The notes under the pieces are model-generated. The model was given only the letters and a program-made list of their open reading frames with translations, was not told where the DNA came from and did not search any database. The translations under genes and the position numbers were made by a program. Below are positions 16,667 through 61,745 of a DNA stretch of 64,000 bases, piece after piece. Origin of the DNA: an uncultured Candidatus Saccharibacteria bacterium (GTDB lineage: Bacteria; Patescibacteriota; Saccharimonadia; Saccharimonadales; Saccharimonadaceae); assembly GCA_938046735.1 (NCBI GenBank), contig CALIXF010000003.1, forward strand, positions 16,463-80,462, read 5' to 3'. Every line of letters starts with the position of its first letter. Position 1 is the first letter of the stretch.

Positions 16667-17887
16667 TTAGCTAGAAAATTTAAGAGAGTCAATTGGTTTT
16701 TGCTTGGAGGCTTTGATGGCAGGGAATAAACCAAAGAGAATACCCGTAACGAAGGCGAAATAGAAGGCGACAAGACAAATTTCTAAGCTAATAAAGGGCT
16801 TGAAGGGAGTAAAGGTTGAGCAAAAGATGGCGATTAGATAGCCAAGAAGAAAGCCACCGATGCAGCCGACAAGGACGAGAATGATGCTTTCAAAAAGAAA
16901 TTGCATGAAAATATGAGTATTAGTGGCGCCGATGGCTTTGCGAATACCGATTTCGTGGGTTCGTTCGGTGACAGAAACAAGCATAAGGTTCATAACACTA
17001 ATACCGCCAATGAAGAGTGAAATGGCAGCAATACTACCAAGCATAATGGAAATTATAGAAAAGAAATTACTGGCGGGATGGGTGATATGTGAACCGTAAT
17101 TTACAGTAAAATTACTGGATGAGCCTTTAAGATCGGTGAGGGATTTTGTGATTTTTTCGGCAGTAGATTCTAATTGCTTGTCGTCCTTAACTGTGATATT
17201 GATTTGTTGGATTTGAGGATTGAGATTTTTGATTTGATTAAGGTCAACAATGACGGCTTGATCAAAATCTACACCGTTAAAATTGACAGGATTTTCAGTT
17301 TTTTGCAGAGTACCAATAATGATAAATTTGTGGCCTGCAAAAGAAAATGTTTTGCCGATCGGTTCACTCGAGCCAAAAAGTTGGAGTGCAAGAGAGTGGC
17401 CAATAACAGCAGATTTTAAATCATTATCTTGAATAAAATTACCGGATTTAAGATCTAGGTTTAAGATCGGCTTTAGATCAGAATTAGTGGCTAGAATTGT
17501 GGCTGACTCAACTGTGTGATCACCAGTGGCCGTTTCATGAAGAATAGCAATAGGGGCGATATTCTTGATATTATCGCTAGATTCTTTTATTTTGATGAGA
17601 TCTTCTGCGGTTAGATTTGAATTATTGAAATGATTGGAATTTGTGAGTTCGTCGATGATATTATTTAGATTATTTTTATTATTAGCAGGACGGACTAAAA
17701 TTAGTTGTTGATTGAGAGCTTTGACTTGTGAAGAAATTAATTGTGATATACTCCCAGCGAGACTGAGGATAAGAATAATGCTGCCGATACCAACGGAAAT
17801 ACCAAAGCAAGTGAAAAAACTACGAAATTTATGTTTTTTGAGAGAGTTTTTGGCGATCTCAAAATTAGTACGAAGAAGTAGTGACAT
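16667..17887 (-). CDS. ABC transporter permease, FtsX/MacB family (TM1, large extracytoplasmic domain, 3 C-terminal TMs)
   Basis: 406 aa; FtsX-like topology; start overlaps the upstream ATPase stop (TAATG). Confidence 0.8.
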   Translation of the reverse strand: MSLLLRTNFEIAKNSLKKHKFRSFFTCFGISVGIGSIILILSLAGSISQLISSQVKALNQQLILVRPANNKNNLNNIIDELTNSNHFNNSNLTAEDLIKIKESSDNIKNIAPIAILHETATGDHTVESATILATNSDLKPILNLDLKSGNFIQDNDLKSAVIGHSLALQLFGSSEPIGKTFSFAGHKFIIIGTLQKTENPVNFNGVDFDQAVIVDLNQIKNLNPQIQQINITVKDDKQLESTAEKITKSLTDLKGSSSNFTVNYGSHITHPASNFFSIISIMLGSIAAISLFIGGISVMNLMLVSVTERTHEIGIRKAIGATNTHIFMQFLFESIILVLVGCIGGFLLGYLIAIFCSTFTPFKPFISLEICLVAFYFAFVTGILFGLFPAIKASKQKPIDSLKFSS

Positions 17888-19212
17888 TATTTGCGGCGTC
17901 CTTTCGCTTGTTTTTTATTAGTTTTTGCGACTTTGGTTTTGGCCTTTTGTTTGGTTGTTGACCTTTCTAATTCTTCAAGGATTGTAGTTTTTTTAACAAT
18001 ACGAATGGAACTGTCGTTGGAATTTGACGATACGACGGGGAAGGTTGACTTAGCTGTGCTAGCCTCAGACTTTGAAGACGATTTTGATTGTATGGATGAA
18101 GTGGATTCGTCAACGGAAATTTCTGTACTAGTCGGATATTTATAAGAAAGATTTGGAGTCTTTGACTCTGGTTTTTTATTTTTTTCAATGTTTTGAAGAG
18201 TGGGGTCGGGCGGACCGATTGGTGGGTGACTAGACTCGATTGATTCAGATGCTTGATCGGTGGATAGAAAATTATTCTTACTTGATGAGTCGAGAGTTTC
18301 TTGAGGTGTAAGGTTAAAATTACGGTAAGAGTCAGGGTTCTTGAATCCAACTTTTTGGATAGGACGGACGTGAATGGTGTGAATTTCAGGTTGTTCGATT
18401 TTTTCGGATTCTTGGGTATTAATTATGTCCTGAATAGACTCTGAGAGTTTTTTCGATTGAAAATTAACTTTTATACGTTCAGGAAGGTCTTCATCGGCAA
18501 CAGTTTTAATATCGGTGGCGATGCGACCGTCAAGCATGTGAATAACGCGAGTGGCATAAGATGTAAGATTTGGATTATGAGTAACCATAATGATGGTGTT
18601 GCCTTTTGAATGGATACGACGAAGTTCTTCCATGACAAGATGAGCGTTATGGCTATCAAGATTACCAGTGGGTTCGTCAGCAAGGATGATTTCTGGTGAA
18701 GAAACTAGAGCGCGGGCGATGGCAACGCGTTGTTTTTGACCTCCGGAAAGCTGATATGGATAATAATATTCACGTTGTTGCATATTGAGATAGGCAAGCA
18801 TTTCAGAAGATTTGATGAGGCGTTTGGTTTTGGACACGCCGGCGTAAAGTAGGGGGAGGGAAACGTTTTCAAGAATAGTCATTTTAGGGATAAGATTAAA
18901 ATCTTGAAAAATAAAGCCGATTTTTTGTGCACGAATATGAGCTTGATGTGATTTAGAAAATACCGTAGTGCGTTCGGAGTCGAGATAGTAGCTACCGGAA
19001 GTAGGAAAGTCAAGAAGTCCAATAATGTTTAATAATGTAGTCTTACCACAGCCGGAAGGGCCCATAATCATAATAAACTCGCCAGGCTTAACTTCAAGAT
19101 TAAAATCATTGAGTGCGAATGACTCAGCTTCACCGTAACCAAAGCTGCGTGTGATGTTCTTTAATTCAATTAAAAGTGAATTGTCTTTTCTAATATTACC
19201 CTTTTGACTCAT
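17887..19212 (-). CDS. ABC transporter ATP-binding protein (FtsE/MacB-type NBD) with a roughly 210-aa disordered S/T/K-rich C-terminal extension
   Basis: Walker A GPSGCGKTT, signature LSGGQKQRVAIARAL, Walker B ILADEPTGNLD; start placed at MSQKGN (19212) rather than the ORF-track 19314; long low-complexity tail ending in a KQAKGRRK basic patch. Confidence 0.8.
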   Translation of the reverse strand: MSQKGNIRKDNSLLIELKNITRSFGYGEAESFALNDFNLEVKPGEFIMIMGPSGCGKTTLLNIIGLLDFPTSGSYYLDSERTTVFSKSHQAHIRAQKIGFIFQDFNLIPKMTILENVSLPLLYAGVSKTKRLIKSSEMLAYLNMQQREYYYPYQLSGGQKQRVAIARALVSSPEIILADEPTGNLDSHNAHLVMEELRRIHSKGNTIIMVTHNPNLTSYATRVIHMLDGRIATDIKTVADEDLPERIKVNFQSKKLSESIQDIINTQESEKIEQPEIHTIHVRPIQKVGFKNPDSYRNFNLTPQETLDSSSKNNFLSTDQASESIESSHPPIGPPDPTLQNIEKNKKPESKTPNLSYKYPTSTEISVDESTSSIQSKSSSKSEASTAKSTFPVVSSNSNDSSIRIVKKTTILEELERSTTKQKAKTKVAKTNKKQAKGRRK

Positions 19213-19275
19213 TAATTTAATTATAGCATGCAAGAGAAAAACCAGTGATTTATGTGATAAAATTATTAAAGAAAA

Positions 19276-20724
19276 GTGGAGAAAAAATCGATGCCAAAAA
19301 GAAAAACAAAGCATTCGAGAAAAACGATAAAGAAACGAGTGGGGAAGAAGATTCTAGTGTCTGAAAAAAGCATGACCGAAGATGTTTTGGTAAAAAAAAT
19401 GGCGGAGAATAAACTCGAAAAGACCGAAATGGTTGATAAGAGTGAAAAAGAAGATGAGAGCTCGACGAAAACAGCAGAGGCTAAGCCAGATCAAACTGTG
19501 AAAGTTGAGCCAGAGCCTGTAGTTAAAAAGATTGTTCAAGAAAGAAATATTCAGGAGGAGTCAGCTGAAGAAAAGCGAAAGAAAGTAAACGCAATCCTGA
19601 AGTTTGAGAAAGAATTGGCCAAGGATAGGAAACGTTTAAAACGAAAAGTAAAAAAAGAAAAGACTAGTATTCCGCTTTGGACAAAGATTTTGATTGTAGT
19701 GCTAAGTTCAATTATTGTACTGATGGTTGCTGCTGCAATTTTTGGTTATATGCTATTGTCTCATACGGCAAATGTATTCAAGGGGAATCCGATGGATATT
19801 TTGATTGGTACAGAACTTGCAAAAGATGAAAATAATTTGACTAATGTGTTGATTTTTGGAACAAGTGAAGATGCTGAAGGGCATGGTGGTGGACTTTTGA
19901 CAGACTCGATCTTAGTTGCTTCAATTGACCAAGAAAAGAAAACTTCAAAGATTTTTAGTATTCCGAGAGATCTTTGGGTGAATTACGCGGTACCGGGTGG
20001 GGAAACAATGAATTGTGTGGTGGGAACACAGGGCAAGATTAATGCCACTTATATGTGCGCGCTAGGTGAATATAAAAATAATAAAGATCGGGCTTCAAGA
20101 TATTTTGCAAAGAAAGTTTCAGAAATTACAGGGCTGAACTTGCAATATTATATTTCGTTAGATTGGAATGCATTAAAAACTGTGGTAGATGAACTGGGGG
20201 GAATCGATGTGGATGTTTATGCAGATGATGAGTCGGGAATTCATGATTCTTGCCAGCATTTGGATCTTGCTAAGGGGATGAATTATGGTTTAAACGGTAG
20301 TACGGCGTTGAAGCTAGCCAGGGCACGTAATGCTGGGTGTGACGAAGGTGGAGATTTTGGTTTATCACGTAGCAACTTTGATCGTGAGATTAATCAGCAG
20401 AGAATTTTTAGTGCAATCAAAAATAAGGCATTTTCTATTGGAATATTAACGAAACCAACTAAAGTGATTAGATTGATTGATTCATTGGGAGATAACGTGA
20501 AGACAAATATTACGATGGCAGAAGTGCGTACTTTGATTGATATTGCTACGCATTTGGAAGAGGAAGTAGAATCGGTATCAACAGTGGATCAGTTCGGCGT
20601 GGGAAGAATTGGAATACAGAGTGTGGTTTTGCCACGAGGGGCCTCAACTTATAATGAAAGTTCAATGTTCAGCTATGGTGATTTTCAAAGATATTTGAGA
20701 AAAAAATTAATTAAAGTTGAATAA
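19276..20724 (+). CDS. LytR-CpsA-Psr (LCP) family cell-envelope polymer transferase with a lysine-rich cytoplasmic N-terminus and one TM
   Basis: 482 aa; LCP core (NVLIFGTSED...TDSILVASID...IPRDLWVNY). Confidence 0.8.
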   Translation: MEKKSMPKRKTKHSRKTIKKRVGKKILVSEKSMTEDVLVKKMAENKLEKTEMVDKSEKEDESSTKTAEAKPDQTVKVEPEPVVKKIVQERNIQEESAEEKRKKVNAILKFEKELAKDRKRLKRKVKKEKTSIPLWTKILIVVLSSIIVLMVAAAIFGYMLLSHTANVFKGNPMDILIGTELAKDENNLTNVLIFGTSEDAEGHGGGLLTDSILVASIDQEKKTSKIFSIPRDLWVNYAVPGGETMNCVVGTQGKINATYMCALGEYKNNKDRASRYFAKKVSEITGLNLQYYISLDWNALKTVVDELGGIDVDVYADDESGIHDSCQHLDLAKGMNYGLNGSTALKLARARNAGCDEGGDFGLSRSNFDREINQQRIFSAIKNKAFSIGILTKPTKVIRLIDSLGDNVKTNITMAEVRTLIDIATHLEEEVESVSTVDQFGVGRIGIQSVVLPRGASTYNESSMFSYGDFQRYLRKKLIKVE

Positions 20725-47662: not shown

Positions 47663-48670
47663 ATGAAAAAAGCGATCGTGGAAGAAAATAATAAGATAAG
47701 TAGTGAAGACGAGGAGCTTTTTGCTGTTCGCGATACAGATATGGGGCCACAGGAACCTGGGGTCGATGACCTTTCAGAAGATGAGGAGTTGTCAGATGAG
47801 GATCTGGAAATTACCGCTGAGAATGTGGATCAGTTTGCTGATGACTCGGTGAGATTATATTTAAGAGAAATTGGTAAAATTCCGCTCCTTTCAAACGAGG
47901 AAGAAACTGATCTTGCTTATCGTGTTGTGAAAGGTGAAAAGAAAGCCAAGGATAAAATGGTGGAGGCTAATATGCGTCTCGTGGTGTCGATTGCGAAACG
48001 TTATTCTGGTCGTGGTTTAGATTTTTTGGATTTGATTCAAGAAGGGAATACTGGTCTGCTTCGTGCAGTAGAGAAATTTGATCCGGATAAGGGTTTTAAA
48101 TTCTCTACTTATGCCACTTGGTGGATTAGGCAAGCAATTACGCGTGCAATTGCTGATCAGGCAAGAACGATTCGTATTCCTGTGCATATGGTGGAAACTA
48201 TTAATAAAGTTCTACGAGCAACTAGGAAATTAACAAATGAGTTAAATCGTGAGCCGACCACGGAAGAAGTAGCTAAAGAGATGGGTATGGAGCCGGATAA
48301 GGTCGACTATGTGATGAAGATCAAGCAAGATATTGCATCGTTAGACGCGGCGGTAGGTCATGATGGCGAGGATGAGGATTCAGTACTGGGAGACTTTATT
48401 GAGGATGAGGGGCGAGTCTCGCCTGAGGATGCAGCAGCGGCTCAAATGTTAAAGGAGCAGATTGCGGAAATTTTAGGATCTTTGTCTGAACGTGAACAAA
48501 AAGTAATTAAATTACGTTTTGGAATTGGTGGTGGACGTCCGCACACTTTGGAAGAAGTGGGGGCGGAGTTTGCTGTAACGAGGGAACGCATTCGTCAGAT
48601 TGAGGCAAAGGCTTTGTCTAAATTGAGAAAACATAAGGATACAAAGAAGTTACACGAATATCTACATTAA
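47663..48670 (+). CDS. rpoD: RNA polymerase sigma factor RpoD (sigma-70, short form)
   Basis: 335 aa; regions 2-4 ([19 protein letters not shown]; C-terminal HTH); acidic N-terminus. Confidence 0.9.
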
Positions 48671-54079: not shown

Positions 54080-55840
54080 ATGACATTACTGACGCAGGAA
54101 GCACAAGAAAAAGTAGTATCCCTTTTAATCTCAGAGGGGTTGGTTTCTAGTGAAAAAGTTCAGGAAGTAGTTGAGGAAATAAAAAAGACAAAACAGCCAC
54201 TTCTTGCGACTTTAATTGCGAGAAGAGTGACAGATGCGGAGACCGTAACGCATGCAACGGCGGTGATAATTAATGTGCCGTATGTAAGCTTAAGAAATGT
54301 GATGTTTGATCCGGAAATTTTATCACTCTTGCCGTATGACGTGGTTTCAAGGTCAATGGTAGTACCGCTCGGGGAAAAGAATGGACAATTGTATGTGGCG
54401 ATGCTTGATGTGTCAAACGTACAACAGACGGATTATTTGTCACAGTTAACGCAGAAACCAATAAGAATTATGATGGCTTCTGAAAAAGGTCTAAAAGCCG
54501 CAATCTCGCAATATAGAGGAGACTTCACGGCAGTAGAAAAGGCGGTGAAGACTTCAGAGGCAGATGAAGCTTCACATGGGGCAAATGTGAAGATTATTAC
54601 GCAAGATTCGCCAATCTCAAAAGCATTATCAACGATTTTGACTTTTGCGACAAAATCAAAAGCTTCGGATATTCATATTGAGCCATTAGAAAAAACTTTG
54701 ATTGTGAGATGCCGAATTGATGGCGTACTTCGTAAGGTAATGGAGTTGCCTAAAACGATTGAGCCAGCCCTAGTATCTCGTGTGAAAATTTTATCAAACC
54801 TAAAGATTGACGAACATCGTATACCACAGGATGGACAATTTACGGTACTTGTGGATGGAAAAGAAGTAGATTTGCGTATTGCTATTTCGCCGGTAATTTG
54901 GGGGGAACAGGTAGTGATTCGTATCTTGGATAAAAGTGGAACAACGCTTGATATTGAACAAATGGGAATGACTGGTCATGCGTTGAGGATGGTGGAGCGA
55001 GGAATTGCAAAGCCAAATGGTATGATTTTAACTTCAGGTCCAACTGGTTCTGGAAAATCGACAACGTTGTACGCTCTGATTCGTAGGATTAGGACAGACG
55101 GTATTAATATCGTGACGCTGGAAGATCCGGTGGAGTATAAGATGGATGGAGTGAATCAGATTCAGGTGAATGTGGATGCTGGTTTGACTTTTGCAACTGG
55201 TTTACGTAGTATTTTGCGTCAAGATCCGGATGTGGTGATGGTAGGAGAAATTCGTGATGCGGAAACGGCAAATTTAGCAGTTCAGGCTGCACTGACTGGG
55301 CATTTGGTGTTTTCGACATTACATACTAACTCGGCGGCAGGTATTTTGCCAAGGCTTCTTGATATGGGAATTGAACCATTTTTATTAGCCTCAACACTAA
55401 ATACGGTTATTGGACAGAGATTAGTAAGACGAGTGGCGCCAAAGAGAGAGGCTGTTCATTCAAATGAAATGGAAACGAAGCAAATTAATGATTTGGTGGG
55501 AAACATTCTACCACAAAATCAACAGCAAGTTGCAATCGTATCAGACGACTTAGGTTATACGGGTTTGCCAGTGGTGAATCCAAATGGCTACACTCTAGTT
55601 AGGGGAATTGATGAGCGAGAAACGCCTGGAGGGTATAAGGGGAGGGCAGGTCTTTATGAAACTATTGAAGTGGATGACGATATACAAAAAATGATTATTT
55701 CACACGCAACATCAAGCGAAATTATGAAGTTAGCTAAGTCGAAGGGGACATTGACGATGCGGCAGGACGGGATGATGAAAGCTTTAACAGGTATAACAAC
55801 GGTGAGTGAAGTGAATCGTGTGGCGTCGGATTTAGCTTAA
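54080..55840 (+). CDS. pilB: type IV pilus assembly ATPase PilB (GspE family)
   Basis: 586 aa; N-terminal T2SSE_N domain, Walker A LTSGPTGSGKSTTLYAL, Asp box, His box. Confidence 0.9.
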   Translation: MTLLTQEAQEKVVSLLISEGLVSSEKVQEVVEEIKKTKQPLLATLIARRVTDAETVTHATAVIINVPYVSLRNVMFDPEILSLLPYDVVSRSMVVPLGEKNGQLYVAMLDVSNVQQTDYLSQLTQKPIRIMMASEKGLKAAISQYRGDFTAVEKAVKTSEADEASHGANVKIITQDSPISKALSTILTFATKSKASDIHIEPLEKTLIVRCRIDGVLRKVMELPKTIEPALVSRVKILSNLKIDEHRIPQDGQFTVLVDGKEVDLRIAISPVIWGEQVVIRILDKSGTTLDIEQMGMTGHALRMVERGIAKPNGMILTSGPTGSGKSTTLYALIRRIRTDGINIVTLEDPVEYKMDGVNQIQVNVDAGLTFATGLRSILRQDPDVVMVGEIRDAETANLAVQAALTGHLVFSTLHTNSAAGILPRLLDMGIEPFLLASTLNTVIGQRLVRRVAPKREAVHSNEMETKQINDLVGNILPQNQQQVAIVSDDLGYTGLPVVNPNGYTLVRGIDERETPGGYKGRAGLYETIEVDDDIQKMIISHATSSEIMKLAKSKGTLTMRQDGMMKALTGITTVSEVNRVASDLA

Positions 55841-55913
55841 TAAGAGAGAATCATTGAGACAAAAATATAATAAATGATTAAGCTTATGTTAGAATAATAG
55901 GAAAGAGGATAAA

Positions 55914-57155
55914 ATGCAGGGAAATACACAGCCACAAACAAATATGACAGCTATGCCGACTTCAACAGCGGGAGTGGCTCCACAGGTGAATCTGGCAAAT
56001 GTGACAGCTTCACCACAGCCTGTGGCGACAGCGGTTAAGACAACAGCAGCTAGTCAAGCAGCGGCAGCTTCGACTCCGACTAGCTTGCCAACCTCAATTA
56101 AGATTGAAACACTGCTTGAAGAGTGTATTAAACGTAGTGCATCCGATTTGCATATTCAGGTTGGATTGCCGCCAATTTTACGCATTGACGGATCTTTAGC
56201 TCCTATCCCAAATACACCAGCATTAACGAGCGAAATGGTGGATAAGCTGATTTTTTCAACTTTGGACTCAATGCAACGTGAAGTTTTGTCAAAAGACAAA
56301 GAGTTTGATTATTCATTTTCTTTTGGTGAGATTGCACGTTTTCGTGTAAATGCATTTAATGAAAAAGGTAATTTGGCTGCAGCATTTCGTCTAATTCCCA
56401 CAAAGATGCCAACAATTGAAGAGTTGGGAATGCCACAAATTATTTCTTCATTTGCAGATTATCCACGTGGATTGGTTCTAGTAACTGGTCCAACTGGATC
56501 AGGTAAATCAACAACTTTAGCGGCAATTATTAATAAGATTAATTCTGAAAAGGCGATGCATATTTTAACGATTGAGGACCCAATCGAATTTACGCATAAA
56601 TCAATTCGTTCAGTGGTGGCACAGCGAGAAGTGCATTATGATACGTACTCTTTTTCGAGGGCGTTAAAGTCGGCTCTCCGTGAAGATCCGGATGTGGTGT
56701 TGCTCGGTGAAATGCGTGATCTTGAGACGATTTCATCGGCAATTACGATTGCGGAGACTGGACATTTGGTTTTTGCGACGCTTCATACTAATTCAGCAGC
56801 TCAGTCAATTGATCGTATGATTGATGTTTTTCCAGCAGAACAACAACCACAGATTCGTTCGCAGTTAGCTGGAATTTTAATGGCGGTTTGTTCGCAGAGA
56901 CTTGTGCCTGCAATTGGAGGAGGGCGCGTTGTGGCAGCGGAGATTATGATTGCTAATTCGGCGGTGCGTTCAATTATTCGTGAGGGAAAAACACATCAAC
57001 TGGATAATACTATCCAAACTGGTGCAAATGAGGGGATGCAGACAATGGACCGAACTTTGGCAAAACTTGTACAGCAGGGAACAGTGACTTATGATAGCGC
57101 TAGAGATTATGCAGTAGATACGCGTGAATTTGATAGATTAGTGAAGGGGATCTAA
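55914..57155 (+). CDS. pilT: type IV pilus retraction ATPase PilT with a roughly 60-aa disordered N-terminal extension
   Basis: Walker A VLVTGPTGSGKSTTLAAII; AIRNLIRE-like motif (AVRSIIREGK). Confidence 0.85.
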   Translation: MQGNTQPQTNMTAMPTSTAGVAPQVNLANVTASPQPVATAVKTTAASQAAAASTPTSLPTSIKIETLLEECIKRSASDLHIQVGLPPILRIDGSLAPIPNTPALTSEMVDKLIFSTLDSMQREVLSKDKEFDYSFSFGEIARFRVNAFNEKGNLAAAFRLIPTKMPTIEELGMPQIISSFADYPRGLVLVTGPTGSGKSTTLAAIINKINSEKAMHILTIEDPIEFTHKSIRSVVAQREVHYDTYSFSRALKSALREDPDVVLLGEMRDLETISSAITIAETGHLVFATLHTNSAAQSIDRMIDVFPAEQQPQIRSQLAGILMAVCSQRLVPAIGGGRVVAAEIMIANSAVRSIIREGKTHQLDNTIQTGANEGMQTMDRTLAKLVQQGTVTYDSARDYAVDTREFDRLVKGI

Positions 57156-58372
57156 TGAAACGTTTTATATACAAGGCAAGAGATAGCAAGACTGGAGAGA
57201 TTATGAAGGGGGTGATCCAGGCGGAAAACGAGAGAACGGCGGGAAAACTTTTGATTGAGCAGGGGATGACACCAGACCGAATTGATGAAGATATGTCTGG
57301 GGTCGGGCTATTTCAACGTTTTCGAAATAAAGTTACAATGAAAGATAAGATTGTCTTTACAAGACAGTTTGCGACTTTAATCGGTGCAGGTTTGCCGTTA
57401 TCTAATTCACTAAGAACGGTGATTGAACAGACGGAAAGTAAGCCAATGCAGAAAGTGGTTGAATCGATCTTGGTAGATGTTGAGGCTGGTAAAACTTTAA
57501 CACAGGCTTGTGAAAAATATCCTGATGTATTCAATAAAGTTTATATCGCCTTACTTAGGGCGGGCGAAGCTTCAGGTAGTTTGGATGTGTCACTTAAACG
57601 ATTAGCTGAACAGCAGGAAAAAGATCATGCGATGATCTCTAGAATTCGTGGAGCGTTGATTTATCCAGCAATTATTTTAATGGTAATTATTGCGGTTTTA
57701 GTATTTATGGTATTAATGATTGTGCCACAAGTACAGTCTTTATATAAGGATATAGGTAAAGATTTACCTTGGGCGACGATGGTTTTGGTGTCGTTCGCGA
57801 ATTTTCTAGTAGCATTTTGGTGGCTAGTGACAATTTTACTTGGTATAGCCATCTATTTCCTTTTGCAATTCAGGAAGACGACGACGGGTATTGAGTGGTC
57901 GGCGATGATAAAGCTGAATGTGCCAATATTTAAAACGATGTTTTGGCGATTATATAATGCGCGATTTGCAAGAACGGCGTCAAATTTAATGTCGGCTGGC
58001 GTGTCAATTCAGGATACCTTACAGATTTCGGCTGAAGCGATGAATAATGTTGTGCTTGAGAAGGAAATTAAAGATGTTTCTGAAAAAGTAAAACAGGGTA
58101 AGACTTTGTCGTCGTCTTTGAAGAATTTATCGTATATTTTACCATTAGTACCGCAGATGGCTTCGATTGGTGAGGAATCTGGTAAAATAGATGAGATGTT
58201 GGCGAAGGCTGCACAGGTGTACGAGGATGAGTTGGAAGAGCAGATTCGTACGATTTCAACGATGATTGAACCAGTTCTAATGGTGGTCATGGCAATAATG
58301 GTTGGTTTTATTATCGTAGCAGTACTATTCCCAATATATTCAATCGTAAATGATGTACAAGGTAATATATAG
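57155..58372 (+). CDS. pilC: type IV pilus platform protein PilC (GspF family)
   Basis: 405 aa; two GspF repeats with 3 TM helices. Confidence 0.85.
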   Translation: MKRFIYKARDSKTGEIMKGVIQAENERTAGKLLIEQGMTPDRIDEDMSGVGLFQRFRNKVTMKDKIVFTRQFATLIGAGLPLSNSLRTVIEQTESKPMQKVVESILVDVEAGKTLTQACEKYPDVFNKVYIALLRAGEASGSLDVSLKRLAEQQEKDHAMISRIRGALIYPAIILMVIIAVLVFMVLMIVPQVQSLYKDIGKDLPWATMVLVSFANFLVAFWWLVTILLGIAIYFLLQFRKTTTGIEWSAMIKLNVPIFKTMFWRLYNARFARTASNLMSAGVSIQDTLQISAEAMNNVVLEKEIKDVSEKVKQGKTLSSSLKNLSYILPLVPQMASIGEESGKIDEMLAKAAQVYEDELEEQIRTISTMIEPVLMVVMAIMVGFIIVAVLFPIYSIVNDVQGNI

Positions 58373-58375
58373 ATA

Positions 58376-58825
58376 ATGAAAACTTTATGGACCGATGGCA
58401 GTGCTTCGCCGAATCCGGGGCCTGGTGGTTTTGCGGTAATCTATGATGGAAAGCCAGTAAGACTGGGTAGAGAAGAATCTTCAACAAATATAAGAATGGA
58501 AGGCGCGGCAATGCGAGCGGCAATGCAATTTTTAGATGGAGAGGAAGGGGAAATTTATTCGGATTCAGAATTTTGGATCAATGTACTAACTAAATGGGCG
58601 CCAATTTGGCAAAAGAATGGTTGGAAGAAAAAAACTGGTTCGATCAAGAATTTGAATTTGGTAAAAGAATTATACGGATTATATTGCGATTCAAAGGTGA
58701 AATTAAACTGGGTGAAGGGGCATGATGGAATCGAGATGAATGAATTAACGGATTTTTGGGCGAATAAGGCAAGAGAGAATGAGGGGTTGGGTGAAGTAGC
58801 GGTAGAATTGGTGTCAACGGAGTAG
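58376..58825 (+). CDS. rnhA: ribonuclease HI
   Basis: 149 aa; MKTLWTDGSASPNPGPGGFAVIY... DEDD-type RNase H fold motifs. Confidence 0.85.
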   Translation: MKTLWTDGSASPNPGPGGFAVIYDGKPVRLGREESSTNIRMEGAAMRAAMQFLDGEEGEIYSDSEFWINVLTKWAPIWQKNGWKKKTGSIKNLNLVKELYGLYCDSKVKLNWVKGHDGIEMNELTDFWANKARENEGLGEVAVELVSTE

Positions 58826-58828
58826 AAA

Positions 58829-59368
58829 ATGCGAAAAATTATTTATAAGAGCAAGATAGATAGTCGTGACGAATTTGAGGCGAAACTTTCTAGTTTGGAT
58901 TATGATTTTGGGCCAGTATATTGGCAACATAATAGAGTTTTTATTCCAAAAAACTATCAGAATCATAGTAATTATCCGAGAATGATTCTAAGGATTGAAA
59001 TGAAGGCAGTGGATCGACCGGCGAAATATGAGCTTATTTGCAAACGGCATATCGAAGATTCAGGGGTAACGATTTCACATGCGACGCAAGTGAAGGACTA
59101 CTCGGAGGCAGCAAGTATTTTATTGCAACTTGGGTTTGTGATGCAGGCGGAGATTTCAAGAAGAAGACAAGCTCTTGAGATAGATAAATATACAATGGTT
59201 TATATCGACCAGATTGATAATCAGGAGGAAAATTTTGTAAAAATTGAGATTACTTTGGAAGATGACGAAAAAGTGGGAGAGGCACAACGAAAATTAGAAA
59301 GTTTGTTAGCCGAGTTTGGTCTCACTGGAAATATACGACTAAAAGAAACCTACGCTGAACTAGTCTAG
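58829..59368 (+). CDS. CYTH-like domain protein (triphosphate tunnel/class IV adenylyl cyclase fold), N-terminal ExExK motif not conserved
   Basis: 179 aa; RMILRIEM and FVKIEITLEDDEKVGEAQRKLESLLAEFGL align with the CyaB/CYTH core (MVLREMN; FAEIAIMTDD...FGL), but the N-terminal sequence is IIYKSKI instead of ExExK. Confidence 0.5.
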   Translation: MRKIIYKSKIDSRDEFEAKLSSLDYDFGPVYWQHNRVFIPKNYQNHSNYPRMILRIEMKAVDRPAKYELICKRHIEDSGVTISHATQVKDYSEAASILLQLGFVMQAEISRRRQALEIDKYTMVYIDQIDNQEENFVKIEITLEDDEKVGEAQRKLESLLAEFGLTGNIRLKETYAELV

Positions 59369-59411
59369 TTAAACTTTTTTGTGTTAAACTAGTTAGAAAA
59401 AGAGAGGAAGT

Positions 59412-60431
59412 ATGGAGTCGGAAGATAGACCAGTATTTACAAATTCTGAGATTAAAAAAATTAATGATTTTGATGTATTTTTGTGGGCAAATGAAATTGA
59501 TGAAGTAAAGAATAATGTTTCTTGTGAACTTTTTTTATTCAATAAAAACTATACTCCATTTAAGATTCGCTATTCAGAGAAGTTAACTAATTCGGTAAAA
59601 CAAATGTTTATGGGTGAAGCTGTGGCATTTGTGATTAAGGAGGCGGATAAAGGACTGGAATGTCGCGAGTATGAAAAATCAGATGGAGAAAACAAAGTAA
59701 TTTATCGTACAGATTTAGATAAAGTAATACGGGCGGAAAGCTTGATCAGATTAGTCGAAAAAGAATATAAAGATATTGATTACTTTACGGATAACGAGCA
59801 TCAATTTAAGAAAGTAAAAGGTATTTTAGCGCGATTTACTTATCCTGGCGGTGAGGGGATGAAGACGTTTTATGTTGCAAAAGCAATTTCAGCTGCTTCG
59901 GCTCTAAATGCAAAATCGTCTTGGGAATTGAATGGTGAGAGCTTTGAGCCGTTTAGTGCGGAAGTGGCTTTGAAAATGCCTGATGACAATCAAGTGGCGA
60001 TTATTGATGAAAATGTGATAATTTTTAACCAAAGTAAATTTGAAAATCTTTTCCAATATGATTTTAAGGCACAGATGCTAGCGGAAGCAAAGGCGAAAGA
60101 AATTGAGGAGAAATATCAGTTATCTTTTGCGGAGGGATTAACTTTAAATGCTTTGCTTCAAGATAAAAAACCGTTGGTGAAAAAATTGCAAGACATGGAT
60201 ATTCAAGAACAGATGTCACAGGAACAGCTAGTTGATTACTCAGATGAGATGAAATTGGATCTAATGACCGATGATGACGGTAAAATTATTATTATGGACG
60301 ACAAAGATTTGACGATGTTTGTCAATTTATTGAACGAGGATTATTATGTATCTCCAGTGAATGGTAAACGATATGAAATTAAGTCTAAGAAATTACTAAA
60401 TGAACCGGAAGGTGAACCACCAAGAGGTTAG
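59412..60431 (+). CDS. hypothetical cytoplasmic protein (339 aa) with an acidic C-terminal region
   Basis: Long ORF with a GAGAGGAAG Shine-Dalgarno sequence; no recognisable catalytic motif. Confidence 0.5.
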   Translation: MESEDRPVFTNSEIKKINDFDVFLWANEIDEVKNNVSCELFLFNKNYTPFKIRYSEKLTNSVKQMFMGEAVAFVIKEADKGLECREYEKSDGENKVIYRTDLDKVIRAESLIRLVEKEYKDIDYFTDNEHQFKKVKGILARFTYPGGEGMKTFYVAKAISAASALNAKSSWELNGESFEPFSAEVALKMPDDNQVAIIDENVIIFNQSKFENLFQYDFKAQMLAEAKAKEIEEKYQLSFAEGLTLNALLQDKKPLVKKLQDMDIQEQMSQEQLVDYSDEMKLDLMTDDDGKIIIMDDKDLTMFVNLLNEDYYVSPVNGKRYEIKSKKLLNEPEGEPPRG

Positions 60432-60432
60432 A

Positions 60433-60663
60433 ATGCCAAGAATTTATATTAAATGTTTGCACTGTGGAGAAATTAAAGCAACTTCTGTAGGGGAGAGGGG
60501 CTTTTTTATTGATGAGGCTTGTAATAAAGAAGAGAGATCTAAGCTTGTAATTTTGGTTGGTGTTTGTTCGTTTTGCCAGTGTAAGAATATAAATACTGGA
60601 AGAAGTCTAATTTTGAAAAATGAATTAACACAAGTAGCACTAAAAGATCAAATTGATGATTGA
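60433..60663 (+). CDS. small 4-Cys zinc-ribbon protein (76 aa), translationally coupled to the upstream gene
   Basis: CLHCG...CSFCQC motif; ATG 2 nt after the upstream stop. Confidence 0.45.
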   Translation: MPRIYIKCLHCGEIKATSVGERGFFIDEACNKEERSKLVILVGVCSFCQCKNINTGRSLILKNELTQVALKDQIDD

Positions 60664-60728: not shown

Positions 60729-61745
60729 ATGAAAAAAATTTATAAGGTTGCGGTCTTTATTTTACTGCTAGCCGGTTTGACTTTTGGTGGAATAAAACTC
60801 GCTAATATATTAAAGAAGAAGAATACGAGTAAGAAATATTCAATTGTGAGTACGAGTTTTCCTGGTTATGACTTTGCACGAGCGGTGGTGGGAAATAATA
60901 CTGATATTTCAGTAAAAATGTTATTAAAACCAGGTGCAGAGTCCCATAGTTTTGAACCAACCCCACAGGATATTTTGGCAATTAAAAATAGTAACTTATT
61001 TCTTTATGTGGGGGGAGATTCAGACGAATGGGTAAAGAAGGTAATAAGTGAAATTGACCCCAAAAAGACCAAGGTTTTGAAATTGATTGACTTGGTGAAG
61101 ACTAAAAATGAAGAAGTGGTTGAGGGGATGCAAGAAGATGAGGAACATGATCACGATCATAAGGATGATCATGAACATGATCATAAACATAGCCATGACC
61201 ACAAAGAAGAGGCTGAGGTTGATGAACATGTATGGACGAGCCTAAAAAATGCTAAAGAGATCACGAATAAAATTTTAGAGGCAGTAGCTGATTTTGATCA
61301 GGCAGAAAAGAAGATGTTGTCAGAAAATGCAAAAAAATACACAGAGAAAATTTCTGAAGTAGATGAAAAAAATGCATCAATGGTAAAACAGGCTAAGCGC
61401 AAAGAAATTATTGTTGGTGACCGTTTCCCATTAAGATATTTTGTAGATGAATACGGTTTGAAATATTATGCTGCATTTCCAGGGTGTTCTGAACAAACAG
61501 AAGCAAATGTTAAAACAGTAAGCTTTTTGGCAAAGAAGATAAAGGAAGATAAGATCCCAGTGATCTTTAAAATTGAGCTTTCAAATGGACTGATTGCGGA
61601 AACATTGTCAAAGGAAACCGGTGCAAAAGTGAGAGAAATACAAACTGCACATAATATTTCCGAGAAAGATTTTGAGGCAGGAGTGACATATGTTGATTTA
61701 ATGAAACGTAACCTTGAAGTACTAAAGGAAGCTTTAAATAGCTAA
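60729..61745 (+). CDS. znuA: zinc ABC transporter substrate-binding protein (ZnuA/TroA family) with a His-rich loop
   Basis: N-terminal lipoprotein-like signal peptide; HDHDHKDDHEHDHKHSHDHKEE flexible loop; cluster-9 solute-binding protein fold. Confidence 0.8.
   Translation: MKKIYKVAVFILLLAGLTFGGIKLANILKKKNTSKKYSIVSTSFPGYDFARAVVGNNTDISVKMLLKPGAESHSFEPTPQDILAIKNSNLFLYVGGDSDEWVKKVISEIDPKKTKVLKLIDLVKTKNEEVVEGMQEDEEHDHDHKDDHEHDHKHSHDHKEEAEVDEHVWTSLKNAKEITNKILEAVADFDQAEKKMLSENAKKYTEKISEVDEKNASMVKQAKRKEIIVGDRFPLRYFVDEYGLKYYAAFPGCSEQTEANVKTVSFLAKKIKEDKIPVIFKIELSNGLIAETLSKETGAKVREIQTAHNISEKDFEAGVTYVDLMKRNLEVLKEALNS

What the first reader, a model, noticed from the sequence alone, without database searches (positions are those of the whole stretch)
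58829..60663. Uncharacterised three-gene module (divergent CYTH-like protein, 339-aa protein, coupled 4-Cys zinc-ribbon protein) between rnhA and znuA
Three tightly packed same-strand genes with no housekeeping assignment lie between a conserved RNase H gene and the zinc-uptake operon. Gene 1 aligns with the CYTH (triphosphate tunnel) core in its central and C-terminal parts. Its N-terminal region does not carry the ExExK catalytic glutamates, so it may be an inactive or repurposed CYTH domain, or use a different nucleotide chemistry. Gene 2 (339 aa) has no recognisable motifs. Gene 3 is a 76-aa CxxC...CxxC zinc ribbon whose ATG lies 2 nt after the gene 2 stop, which suggests stoichiometric co-expression. 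The combination of a nucleotide-signalling-type domain, an unknown partner and a zinc ribbon is the pattern seen in many anti-phage or signalling modules. From sequence I cannot assign it to any described system. A DUF4868/KwaB-type assignment for gene 2 was considered but could not be verified.
Basis: partly seen in the sequence, partly recalled or inferred. Interest (0 to 1): 0.65.

Follow-up and report, generated by a model that had tools for sequence, protein, structure and literature searches.

The report
KwaA-less KwaB homologue with degenerate CYTH partner
In this Saccharibacteria (TM7) genome the middle gene is a full-length relative of KwaB, the DNA-binding effector of the Kiwa anti-phage system, but it has no KwaA membrane partner, is inherited vertically and changes very slowly, so it looks more like a resident DNA-handling protein than a classical defence gene.

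Summary
The three ORFs are real and lie at the stated coordinates.

- **Gene 1 (179 aa)** has a confident CYTH/triphosphate-tunnel fold. In 23 aligned homologues ExExK is K-x-(I/V/L)-x-K, and a C-terminal acidic position is an invariant Lys.
- **Gene 2 (339 aa)** is not motif-less. It passes Pfam KwaB-like (DUF4868), and its only significant PDB fold and sequence matches are full-length KwaB.
- **No KwaA** is adjacent or detected in the window.
- **Conservation.** Gene 2 is the slowest-evolving gene of the locus (dN 0.017, against 0.048 for pilT). It is syntenic in 80 related species and also occurs in G1 Saccharibacteria. Its Southlakia orthologue is non-essential in published Tn-seq.
- **Relatives.** Homologues at 32–51% identity sit in phage or mobile-element replication and recombination modules, or beside rnhA and a PIF1 helicase. 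Canonical KwaA–KwaB appears only at about 23% identity.
- **Gene 1–gene 2 adjacency** holds in 76 of 80 loci, in two orientations, and in one distant lineage. It is absent in G1.
- **Gene 3** is a fast-evolving Zn ribbon restricted to the oral clade.

The locus is therefore not a conserved three-gene module. Best reading: a KwaA-independent DNA-binding protein with a lineage-specific CYTH-like accessory. The function is inferred, not shown.

The parts
58376..58825 (+). rnhA (RNase HI), a recurrent neighbour of the gene 1/gene 2 pair
   Evidence: Pfam RNase_H E 1.7e-27. It lies directly upstream of gene 1 in 40 of 80 related species loci. rnhA is also near the KwaB-like gene in G1 Saccharibacteria, in Southlakia and in L096.
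58829..59368 (+). Gene 1: CYTH/triphosphate-tunnel-fold protein (179 aa) lacking the ExExK glutamates
   Evidence: Pfam CYTH 24.5 bits (GA 23.2). TIGR00318 cyaB 31.9 bits, below its 57.95 cut-off. AF2 pLDDT 91.4. Foldseek top hits are 1yem, 2een, 2fjt and 7nsa at TM 0.74-0.80. Strand 1 is M-R-K-I-I-x-K, with K3, I/V/L5 and invariant K7. The canonical (D/E)-I-E is K138-I-E140.
59401..59409 (+). Shine-Dalgarno-like AGAGAGGAA upstream of the gene 2 ATG
   Evidence: Read directly from the sequence.
59412..60431 (+). Gene 2: full-length KwaB homologue (N-terminal Rossmann-like domain plus C-terminal DUF4868), with no KwaA partner
   Evidence: Pfam PF16162 39.9 bits (GA 26.3). NCBIfam KwaB 44.5 bits over positions 10-305 of 306, far below the 200 cut-off. 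Six PADLOC KwaB models hit. The only significant PDB fold hits are KwaB (9mrx, 9mtn, 9nyu; E 2e-12 to 2e-10; 315-329 columns). The family profile hits KwaB at E 2.8e-9 over its full length. Lowest dN in the locus.
60422..60427 (+). Shine-Dalgarno AAGAGG for gene 3, inside the 3' end of gene 2
   Evidence: Read directly from the sequence.
60433..60663 (+). Gene 3: 76-aa lineage-specific zinc-ribbon protein, probably translationally coupled to gene 2
   Evidence: No hit in Pfam, NCBIfam, PHROGs or PADLOC. Positional orthologues of 61-75 aa keep both CxxC pairs in the loci inspected (L001, L009, L016, L020, L026). It is undetectable from L039 onward, where infB, a tsaC-like gene, rpsU/adk or secY follow gene 2. 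dN is 0.28-0.64, against 0.017-0.044 for gene 2.

Best explanation
Gene 2 is a KwaA-independent member of the KwaB (DUF4868) superfamily. It probably binds DNA without sequence specificity, as KwaB does. Unlike KwaB, it is not tethered to a membrane sensor.

**Evolutionary behaviour.** In Saccharibacteria it is a resident, vertically inherited chromosomal gene. It belongs to a loosely conserved DNA-metabolism neighbourhood with RNase HI, a PIF1/RecD-like helicase in many lineages, and a CYTH-like gene in this lineage. Homologues of the same subfamily are carried by phages and mobile elements inside their recombination and replication modules.

**Most likely role (inferred).** It binds or holds DNA ends, forks or incoming DNA during replication, recombination, repair or transformation. 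It is dispensable for routine growth.

**Gene 1.** It is a CYTH-fold protein that has lost the metal-binding glutamates and gained lysines in the tunnel. It is more likely a binder of a phosphate-rich ligand or a regulatory partner than a cyclase or triphosphatase. Its link to gene 2 is specific to this family.

**Gene 3.** It is a recent, rapidly evolving Zn-ribbon add-on of the oral clade.

**Shown:** homologies, folds, motif loss, synteny, substitution rates, phage contexts, Tn-seq non-essentiality of the Southlakia orthologue.
**Inferred:** DNA binding by gene 2, ligand binding by gene 1, any physical interaction between the proteins, and the cellular process.
For: **Identity.**
- Pfam KwaB-like above threshold.
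- KwaB is the only significant PDB fold hit, over the full length.
- The family profile hits KwaB at E 2.8e-9 over positions 24-317 of 321.

**DNA-contact positions of KwaB** (R167, R233, K187, R142; paper 10.1101/2023.02.26.530102) align with:
- K188;
- the invariant K257;
- S208, next to invariant K209;
- N166, which is Lys in the wider family.

**No KwaA.** Gene 1 is soluble with a CYTH fold. Gene 3 is a Zn ribbon. Their scans and those of the neighbouring genes returned no KwaA hit. The summarised scan of 46 other window ORFs listed none either.

**Vertical and constrained.**
- All 80 species-level loci retrieved lie in a conserved chromosomal neighbourhood. Their identity tiers (97, 94, 87, 75-82%) parallel those of the neighbouring genes.
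- dN against L001: gene 2 0.017, pilC 0.043, pilT 0.048, rnhA 0.070, gene 1 0.098, gene 3 0.283.

**Wider presence.** TM7 HMT-349, HMT-955, Saccharimonas and Southlakia SEML1_0265.

**DNA-metabolism contexts.**
- Southlakia: rnhA, then X, then PIF1-like helicase, then DUF4868.
- L086: CYTH-like, then KwaB-like, then PIF1.
- L096: rnhA, then KwaB-like, then PIF1.
- Phage L102: RecT, then RecE-like exonuclease, then KwaB-like, then helicase.
- L087 and L088: SSB, VRR_NUC, RusA, terminase and portal nearby.
- L092: PDDEXK-FtsK, then KwaB-like.
- BFVD: a Siphoviridae protein at 41% identity.

**Gene 1-gene 2 linkage.** Adjacent in 76 of 80 loci, in two orientations; 34 of these lack rnhA beside gene 1. 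The pair recurs at 31% and 42% identity in L086.

**Tn-seq.** SEML1_0265 is called non-essential at all three time points (PMC10633639 Table S1).
Against: - No experiment or complex prediction supports DNA binding or a gene 1-gene 2 contact here.
- The residue mapping rests on an alignment at 13-15% identity.
- The AF2 model of gene 2 is only moderate (pLDDT 70.8).
- Non-essentiality in phage-free co-culture is exactly what a defence gene would also show.
- Phages often carry defence or superinfection-exclusion genes, so phage homologues do not exclude immunity.
- Neighbourhood with rnhA and PIF1 in very compact genomes could be inherited gene order without functional meaning.
- Between G3 and G1 clades gene 2 is only 43% identical, against 60% for rnhA. 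The extreme constraint is therefore clade-specific.
- In 36 loci genes 1 and 2 are convergent, so they are not co-transcribed there.
Confidence: 0.5

Rival explanations
1. A non-canonical Kiwa-like anti-phage or anti-plasmid system. Gene 2 is the effector that clamps invading DNA and blocks its replication. The CYTH-like gene 1, and in oral lineages the Zn-ribbon gene 3, replace KwaA as sensor or regulator. One possibility is that they make or bind a nucleotide or polyphosphate ligand recognised by the Rossmann-like N-domain of gene 2.
For: - Gene 2 is a full-length KwaB homologue.
- The Kiwa paper describes the KwaB N-domain as a Rossmann-like fold of the kind that binds nucleotide messengers.
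- CYTH proteins act on nucleotides and triphosphates, and gene 1-gene 2 linkage is conserved.
- The Southlakia orthologue is dispensable in phage-free co-culture.
- Gene 3 evolves fast, as arms-race components do.
- Phages carry homologues, as they often do for defence genes.
Against: - KwaA is absent, whereas in Kiwa both genes are required for defence.
- Gene 1 lacks the catalytic glutamates needed to make a signal.
- Gene 2 is the slowest-evolving gene of the locus and is inherited vertically in a housekeeping context. Kiwa is shaped by horizontal transfer and about half of its loci sit on mobile elements.
- G1 Saccharibacteria keep gene 2 without gene 1 nearby.
- Phage homologues sit inside RecT/exonuclease/helicase modules, not in accessory or moron positions.
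Confidence: 0.27
2. There is no module. Three functionally unrelated genes simply lie next to each other in a compact, operon-dense reduced genome. The gene 1-gene 2 adjacency is inherited gene order.
For: - Spacings of 0-4 nt also join pilT-pilC, pilC-rnhA and rnhA-gene 1, and short gaps are usual in the window.
- Promoter-like and terminator-like sites in the region do not exceed the numbers found in shuffled sequence.
- Gene 3 is not conserved beyond the closest clade.
- Gene 1 is not near gene 2 in G1 genomes.
- The convergent arrangement in 36 loci rules out co-transcription there.
Against: - Gene 1 stays next to gene 2 through an inversion that separated it from rnhA in 34 loci.
- The pair recurs with overlapping stop and start codons in a far more distant, 30%-GC lineage (L086).
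- The C-terminal EPPRG tail of gene 2 was seen only in the lineages inspected that also have gene 1.
Confidence: 0.15

Closest known systems
KwaB, effector of the Kiwa defence system (PDB 9mtn, 9nyu, 9mrx, 9o0i; Pfam PF16162)
   Same: - Same two-domain architecture over the full length.
- Similar size (339 aa against 315-321).
- Basic residues are kept at several positions aligned with KwaB DNA contacts.
- A DNA-binding mode is therefore plausible.
   Different: - Only 13-15% identity in the structure-based alignments.
- Fails the NCBIfam KwaB equivalog cut-off (44.5 against 200).
- No KwaA partner.
- Vertical inheritance and extreme sequence constraint, instead of horizontal transfer and mobile-element association.
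- Neighbours are rnhA, a CYTH-like gene and PIF1, rather than defence-island genes.
- Canonical KwaA-KwaB operons appear only among relatives at about 23% identity.
Southlakia epibionticum SEML1_0265 and the 'DUF4868 domain-containing protein' of TM7 HMT-349 and HMT-955
   Same: - Same subfamily: HMT-349 is 43% identical over 312 residues and shares the DIFLWAN and IIIMD...LLNDDY motifs.
- Also KwaA-less, chromosomal and near rnhA.
   Different: - In G1 and Southlakia the neighbours are a PIF1-like helicase upstream and GH1, CofD/YvcK and rsmH downstream.
- There is no CYTH-like gene and no Zn ribbon next to it, and the EPPRG tail is missing.
- It was annotated only as hypothetical/DUF4868 and called non-essential in Tn-seq.
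CYTH / triphosphate tunnel metalloenzymes (class IV adenylate cyclase YpAC-IV 2fjt, PH1819 2een, SaTTM 7nsa)
   Same: - Same eight-stranded tunnel fold (TM 0.74-0.80).
- Same length.
- Many basic residues are conserved (R36, R51, R73, H74, R113, K138).
   Different: - ExExK is K-x-(I/V/L)-x-K in all 23 aligned family members.
- The first acidic residue of the C-terminal (D/E)-I-E strand is an invariant Lys.
- Scores below the NCBIfam cyaB cut-off.
- Metal-dependent catalysis of the known type is unlikely.
End-binding accessory proteins of phage recombination modules (lambda Gam, Mu Gam/Ku). Analogy from general knowledge only.
   Same: In viral contig L102 the KwaB-like gene follows RecT and a RecE-like exonuclease. 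This is the kind of position an end-protection factor occupies in Red-type modules. The Kiwa paper models KwaB as a dimer with DNA threaded through a central channel.
   Different: There is no sequence or fold relationship to Gam or Ku. No Ku or Gam entry was among the significant PDB fold matches. End binding is untested.

Membership tests
Kiwa defence system (KwaA + KwaB) | A KwaB protein with a DUF4868 domain | tested here: met
   Pfam PF16162 39.9 bits against GA 26.3. Six PADLOC KwaB models hit. Full-length fold and profile matches to solved KwaB.
Kiwa defence system (KwaA + KwaB) | KwaA, a four-TM membrane protein encoded immediately upstream and required for defence | tested here: not met
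   - The upstream gene is a soluble CYTH-fold protein. The downstream gene is a Zn ribbon.
- Genes 1 and 3 have no Pfam or PADLOC KwaA hit.
- No PADLOC hit for nearby small membrane ORFs or for the G1 neighbours.
- No KwaA among the top hits for 46 other window ORFs. Only 25 of 47 matched families were listed, so a weak hit with E above 4e-5 cannot be excluded.
- Positive control: KwaA (PF28043) is present upstream of the distant relative P0233.
Kiwa defence system (KwaA + KwaB) | Equivalog-level similarity to characterised KwaB (NCBIfam NF041623) | tested here: not met
   44.5 bits against a cut-off of 200.
Kiwa defence system (KwaA + KwaB) | Defence-island or mobile-element context and horizontally transferred, patchy distribution | tested here: not met
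   - Conserved chromosomal synteny across 80 species-level loci.
- Identity tiers parallel those of the neighbouring housekeeping genes.
- Lowest dN in the locus.
- The Kiwa paper reports strong horizontal transfer and about 54% mobile-element association.
Kiwa defence system (KwaA + KwaB) | Protection against phage or plasmid | not testable with these tools
   Needs an experiment. The only functional datum is Tn-seq non-essentiality of the Southlakia orthologue without phage.
Pfam PF16162 KwaB-like / DUF4868 superfamily | Score above the Pfam gathering threshold over the DUF4868 domain | tested here: met
   39.9 bits, residues 148-317 against profile positions 13-186 of 186. Nine of ten distant family representatives tested also pass; P0183 falls just below at 23.7 bits.
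CYTH / triphosphate tunnel metalloenzyme (PF01928) | Tunnel-shaped eight-stranded beta-barrel fold | tested here: met
   AF2 pLDDT 91.4. Foldseek hits 1yem, 2een, 2dc4, 2fjt and 7nsa at E 2.5e-11 to 4e-9, TM 0.74-0.80. Pfam 24.5 bits against GA 23.2.
CYTH / triphosphate tunnel metalloenzyme (PF01928) | N-terminal ExExK motif (metal-binding glutamates) | tested here: not met
   - Strand 1 reads M-R-K-I-I-Y-K.
- The two Glu positions are Lys (Thr or Gln in two sequences) and Ile/Val/Leu. Neither is ever Glu in the 23 aligned homologues.
- K7 is invariant.
- The register is supported by a weak alignment to 2aca and by the strand position in the model.
CYTH / triphosphate tunnel metalloenzyme (PF01928) | Acidic pair on the C-terminal strand ((D/E)-I-E) | tested here: inconclusive
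   The strand aligns with IEIE, VDIE and LDIE of 2een, 1yem and 2dc4, but reads A/V-K-I-E. K138 is invariant and E140 nearly invariant. One acidic residue is kept and one is replaced.
Class IV adenylate cyclase (NCBIfam TIGR00318 cyaB) | Score above the equivalog cut-off | tested here: not met
   31.9 bits against 57.95.
Zinc ribbon (4-Cys) | Two CxxC pairs conserved among orthologues | tested here: met
   The window protein and the orthologues shown for L001, L009, L016, L020 and L026 all keep both pairs despite low identity. No profile family matches. Metal binding itself is untested.

The most novel reading that the evidence does not exclude
The KwaB fold may not be primarily an immune effector. 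On this reading, Saccharibacteria and their phages share a KwaA-independent KwaB-like DNA clamp that works with RNase HI, PIF1-type helicases and RecT/exonuclease modules on DNA ends or forks. In the Nanosyncoccus-like family it would be gated by a catalytically dead, lysine-lined CYTH tunnel protein that senses a phosphate-rich ligand. Kiwa would then be a membrane-tethered derivative of this older DNA-handling protein.
Probability: 0.2. Interest if true: 0.7.

Novelty: new variant of a known kind. Interest (0 to 1): 0.5.

Why it matters
Kiwa has so far been analysed only as complete KwaA+KwaB operons.

This locus shows a distinct KwaB subfamily that:
- works without KwaA;
- is fixed and strongly constrained in an entire lineage of ultrasmall epibiotic bacteria;
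- is shared with phages, inside their recombination and replication modules.

This bears on where the immune effector came from and what its DNA-binding activity does outside defence. It also gives a tractable test case. Southlakia is genetically manipulable and its orthologue is dispensable. The conserved pairing with a CYTH protein that has lost its catalytic glutamates is a second open question.

The practical lesson is that a KwaB hit alone should not be scored as a defence system in Patescibacteria.

Tried and rejected
- **Kiwa membership.** Rejected. Scans of genes 1 and 3, small membrane ORFs, G1 neighbours and 46 other window ORFs gave no KwaA hit.
- **Operon boundaries.** Promoter-like and terminator-like sites were no more frequent than in shuffled sequence, so no boundaries could be drawn.
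- **G1 gene at the gene 1 position.** I tested whether the 168-170-aa gene after rnhA in G1 Saccharibacteria is a diverged CYTH. hhalign probability was 0.1% and there was no Pfam hit. The 168-aa ORF next to the KwaB-like gene in L090 is unrelated to both.
- **Zn-ribbon partner in phages.** None was found downstream of the phage-borne homologues.
- **Deposited phage genomes.** tblastn of gene 2 and of P0173 against INPHARED gave no match. A single-protein scan of IMG/VR also failed. An alignment-based scan succeeded.
- **dN/dS.** dS is saturated (1.2 or more, often undefined) even against the closest species. Only dN is compared.
- **Rfam.** Only three distant tRNAs were found in the window.
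- **PADLOC MzaA hit (3.2e-65).** It belongs to the ORF at 47663-48670, two ORFs downstream of the ORF I read as dnaG. I read it as a shared sigma-factor-like domain, not as defence. That reading is unverified.
Full report
**Observation.** The region holds the three ORFs described, all on the + strand.
- Gene 1: 58829-59368, 179 aa.
- Gene 2: 59412-60431, 339 aa.
- Gene 3: 60433-60663, 76 aa.
- They lie between rnhA (58376-58825; Pfam RNase_H E 1.7e-27) and znuA (from 60699; Pfam ZnuA E 5e-64).
- The gene 3 ATG follows the gene 2 TAG after one base and is preceded by AAGAGG.
- Gene 2 has an AGAGAGGAA site upstream of its ATG.
- Tight spacing is not peculiar to these genes. pilT/pilC overlap, pilC-rnhA and rnhA-gene 1 are 3 nt apart, and the whole 43-63 kb stretch is one densely packed same-strand block that I read, from the ORF table and partial annotation, as dnaG, a type IV pilus cluster, rnhA, genes 1-3 and znuACB.
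- Promoter-like and terminator-like sites do not exceed the numbers in shuffled sequence.
- The window comes from a Saccharibacterium (TM7) of the G3/Nanosyncoccus group. The closest genome loci include Candidatus Nanosyncoccus nanoralicus, at 97% identity for gene 2.

**Gene 1 is a CYTH fold with a degenerate active site.**
- Pfam CYTH scores 24.5 bits, with a gathering score of 23.2.
- NCBIfam cyaB aligns end to end but scores 31.9, below its 57.95 cut-off.
- A profile of 23 homologues hits the Pyrococcus CYTH proteins 2een and 1yem at E 1.6e-8 and 1e-7.
- The AlphaFold model is confident (pLDDT 91.4).
- Its best PDB neighbours are all CYTH/TTM proteins at TM 0.74-0.80: 1yem, 2een, 2dc4, class IV adenylate cyclase 2fjt/3n10 and Sulfolobus TTM 7nsa.
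- Strand 1 reads M-R-K-I-I-x-K in the family alignment. K7 is invariant and takes the place of the Lys of ExExK. This register is supported by a weak alignment to 'ELKYRV' of 2aca and by the strand position in the model.
- The two glutamate positions are Lys (Thr or Gln in two sequences) and Ile/Val/Leu. Neither is ever Glu in the 23 aligned sequences.
- On the C-terminal strand, where 2een, 1yem and 2dc4 have IEIE, VDIE and LDIE, the family has A/V-K-I-E with an invariant Lys138.
- Many basic residues are invariant: R36, R51, R73, H74, R113 and K138.
I infer that the protein binds a phosphate-rich ligand rather than catalysing a metal-dependent reaction. That inference is untested.

**Gene 2 is a full-length KwaB homologue.**
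- Pfam PF16162 'Kiwa protein KwaB-like' scores 39.9 bits against a gathering score of 26.3.
- Six PADLOC KwaB models match.
- NCBIfam KwaB aligns over positions 10-305 of 306 but scores far below the equivalog cut-off, 44.5 against 200.
- The AlphaFold model is moderate (pLDDT 70.8).
- Its only significant PDB matches are KwaB structures 9mrx, 9mtn and 9nyu, at E 2e-12 to 2e-10 over 315-329 columns. The next hit has E 0.02.
- A profile built from gene 2 and relatives at 21-44% identity hits KwaB at E 2.8e-9 over residues 24-317 of 321.
- The Kiwa study (10.1101/2023.02.26.530102) reports several points about KwaB:
  - KwaB has a Rossmann-like N-domain and a DUF4868 C-domain.
  - It binds ss- and dsDNA without sequence specificity.
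  - It is modelled with DNA threaded through a dimer channel, contacted by R142, R167, K187, R233, N134 and D169.
  - It is held at the membrane by KwaA tetramers.
  - Both genes are needed for defence.
- In the profile alignment, KwaB R167, R233, K187 and R142 fall on K188, the invariant K257, S208 (next to invariant K209) and N166 (Lys in the wider family).
- DNA binding is thus plausible, but it rests on a low-identity alignment.

**No KwaA.**
- The flanking genes are a soluble CYTH protein and a Zn ribbon. Neither hits KwaA in Pfam or PADLOC.
- Small membrane ORFs in the window and the genes next to the G1 homologues give no PADLOC hit.
- A scan of 46 further window ORFs lists no KwaA among the top families. 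Only 25 of 47 families were shown, so a hit weaker than E about 4e-5 is not excluded.
- As a positive control, the distant relative P0233 (23% identity) has a Pfam KwaA gene directly upstream, beside an HNH nuclease and a DNA methylase.

**Evolutionary behaviour.**
- A scan of one genome per species found 276 species that encode close relatives. The best 80 loci were analysed.
- Gene 2 is the most conserved gene of the locus:

| Gene | Identity to the window gene (%) |
|---|---|
| Gene 2 | 75-97 |
| pilC | 69-93 |
| rnhA | 57-88 |
| Gene 1 | 44-84 |
| znuA | 51-78 |

- Against the nearest species (L001), dN is as follows. dS is saturated, so only dN is compared.

| Gene | dN |
|---|---|
| Gene 2 | 0.017 |
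| pilC | 0.043 |
| pilT | 0.048 |
| rnhA | 0.070 |
| Gene 1 | 0.098 |
| Gene 3 | 0.283 |

- The identity tiers of gene 2 parallel those of its neighbours, as expected for vertical descent.
- This contrasts with Kiwa, whose phylogeny is dominated by horizontal transfer and whose loci are about 54% associated with mobile elements.
- The constraint is clade-specific. Against TM7 HMT-349 (G1), gene 2 is 43% identical while rnhA is 60%.

**Is it a three-gene module?**
- Gene 3 has positional orthologues of 61-75 aa that keep both CxxC pairs in the loci inspected (L001, L009, L016, L020, L026), and tblastn matches in L010-L015 and L037.
- It is not detected from L039 onward. There infB, a tsaC-like gene, rpsU/adk or secY follow gene 2.
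- Gene 1 is adjacent to gene 2 in 76 of 80 loci:
  - 40 loci have rnhA, then gene 1, then gene 2, all co-directional.
  - 36 loci have gene 1 downstream on the opposite strand (convergent).
  - In 34 of those 36, rnhA is no longer beside gene 1.
- Gene 1 therefore stayed with gene 2 rather than with rnhA.
- The pair also recurs on a 2.2-kb contig of 30% GC (L086). A 179-aa gene 1 homologue (hhalign 99.1%, again K-x-S-x-K and K-I-E) overlaps the start of a 42%-identical gene 2 homologue. A PIF1 helicase follows.
- In G1 Saccharibacteria the gene 1 profile finds nothing near gene 2. The 168-aa gene after rnhA is not related to gene 1.
- Overall, gene 2 is the conserved core, gene 1 is a family-specific partner, and gene 3 is a clade-specific addition.

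**Wider family and contexts.**
- An exhaustive search of 1.84 billion cluster representatives finds only 201 clusters at E up to 1e-3. The subfamily is small.
- It includes proteins that NCBI names DUF4868 in TM7 HMT-349, HMT-955 and Saccharimonas.
- In G1 the order is rnhA, a 168-aa unknown, PIF1-like helicase, 0-2 inserted genes, KwaB-like, GH1, CofD/YvcK, rsmH, PBP.
- Southlakia epibionticum has the same order, SEML1_0262 to 0267. SEML1_0265 (DUF4868) is called non-essential at all three Tn-seq time points, with 48-58 insertions (PMC10633639 Tables S1 and S2).
- L096 has rnhA, then KwaB-like, then PIF1.
- Relatives at 32-51% identity lie in phage or mobile-element DNA:
  - L088 and L089 have SSB, VRR_NUC, a methyltransferase, terminase and an SPP1-type portal.
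  - L087 has RusA nearby.
  - L092 has a PDDEXK-FtsK protein upstream.
  - L091 has Fic and ParB.
  - IMG/VR contig L102 has RecT, then a RecE-like exonuclease, a 75-aa ORF, KwaB-like, a 146-aa ORF and a D5-like helicase.
- BFVD holds a Siphoviridae protein that is 41% identical (TM 0.82 on the target).
- None of these loci has KwaA or a Zn-ribbon partner.

**Interpretation.**
- Shown: gene 2 is a KwaA-less KwaB homologue. It is fixed and strongly constrained in this Saccharibacteria family. It is shared with phages, inside their DNA replication and recombination modules. On chromosomes it lies repeatedly near RNase HI and a PIF1-type helicase.
- Inferred: it binds DNA as KwaB does and serves DNA replication, recombination, repair or the handling of incoming DNA. 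Saccharibacteria are naturally competent. It would be conditionally useful rather than essential.
- The defence reading remains possible, with gene 1 in place of KwaA as regulator. Non-essentiality without phage, KwaB homology and phage carriage all fit it.
- Against the defence reading are the loss of catalytic residues in gene 1, vertical inheritance, extreme constraint, and the position of the phage copies inside core DNA-metabolism modules.
- A third possibility is that adjacency in a compact genome has no functional meaning. The persistence of the gene 1-gene 2 pair through an inversion and in a distant lineage argues against this.

**Novelty.** The individual domain assignments exist in databases: NCBI names the homologues DUF4868, and the Southlakia table lists it. 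In the library searched, DUF4868 appears in only four papers, and the Kiwa study analysed only complete KwaA+KwaB operons. I found no description of a KwaA-independent, vertically inherited KwaB subfamily in Patescibacteria and their phages, nor of its pairing with an ExExK-less CYTH protein. I rate it a new variant of a known kind, of moderate interest.

Noticed in passing
window 60394-60431 (gene 2 residues 328-339): The disordered C-terminal tail of gene 2 ends in E-P-x-G-E-P-P-R-G. R338 and G339 are invariant across the G3 family. The tail is also present in the distant L086 homologue (P0164). It is absent from the homologues aligned that are not known to have gene 1. Both tail-bearing lineages have gene 1 next door, so it could be a docking motif.
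   Followed up: partly
window 59907-59957 (gene 2 residues 166-182): This segment is predicted disordered (pLDDT below 50), yet its sequence is almost invariant (S170, W171, E172, G175, E176, F178, E179, P180, F181). It aligns with the KwaB DE loop, which contacts KwaA TM2 and DNA. It is a likely partner- or DNA-binding loop.
   Followed up: partly
L102:6312-11161: This IMG/VR viral contig carries RecT-like annealase, then a RecE-like exonuclease, a 75-aa ORF, KwaB-like, a 146-aa ORF (PHROG 17260) and a D5-like helicase. The KwaB-like gene sits where an end-protection factor might be expected in a Red-type module. The 146-aa ORF has a 57%-identical copy in L101.
   Followed up: partly
L081:3725-4729 and L085:4623-5945: Two unannotated proteins (334 and 440 aa) share a 'FPSGTFLFHG(A/S)TT..IVKIL.SGYLMNAHA' motif. 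In L081 the protein lies between the PIF1 helicase and the KwaB-like gene; in L085 it lies between an FtsX permease and the KwaB-like gene. In L081 a 313-aa protein with about two predicted TM segments follows. None has a Pfam or PADLOC hit.
   Followed up: partly
PMC10633639 Table S1, SEML1_0192 and SEML1_0193: Southlakia has two short adjacent ORFs (234 and 345 bp) annotated as class IV adenylate cyclase/CYTH. They look like a split CYTH gene, lie far from its DUF4868 gene, and are both non-essential. I did not test whether they are orthologues of gene 1.
   Followed up: no
window 47663-48670: This 335-aa ORF, two ORFs downstream of the ORF I read as dnaG, matches PADLOC MzaA at E 3.2e-65 over the model's C-terminal 250 positions. 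It is probably a housekeeping sigma-70-type factor that shares a domain with MzaA, not a defence gene. I did not verify this with Pfam.
   Followed up: partly
window 17887-19314 (- strand): This 475-aa ORF hits PADLOC mad3 (E 1.8e-31) and mad8. Two other window ORFs hit the same models. These are probably generic domain matches in transporter-related or kinase-like genes.
   Followed up: no
window 61110-61230 (znuA residues ~137-177): ZnuA carries a long His/Asp/Glu-rich loop (EDEEHDHDHKDDHEHDHKHSHDHKEE). This loop accounts for several weak Pfam side hits (ZrgA, SelP_N).
   Followed up: no
window 54080-58825: Three ORFs read as the type IV pilus genes pilB, pilT and pilC (by sequence inspection; not profiled) run straight into rnhA with 0-3 nt spacing. 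In the oral G3 lineage rnhA, gene 1, gene 2 and gene 3 may therefore be co-transcribed with the pilus motor genes. In the gut and rumen relatives, pilT and pilC were not detected within the ±6 kb flanks of gene 2.
   Followed up: partly
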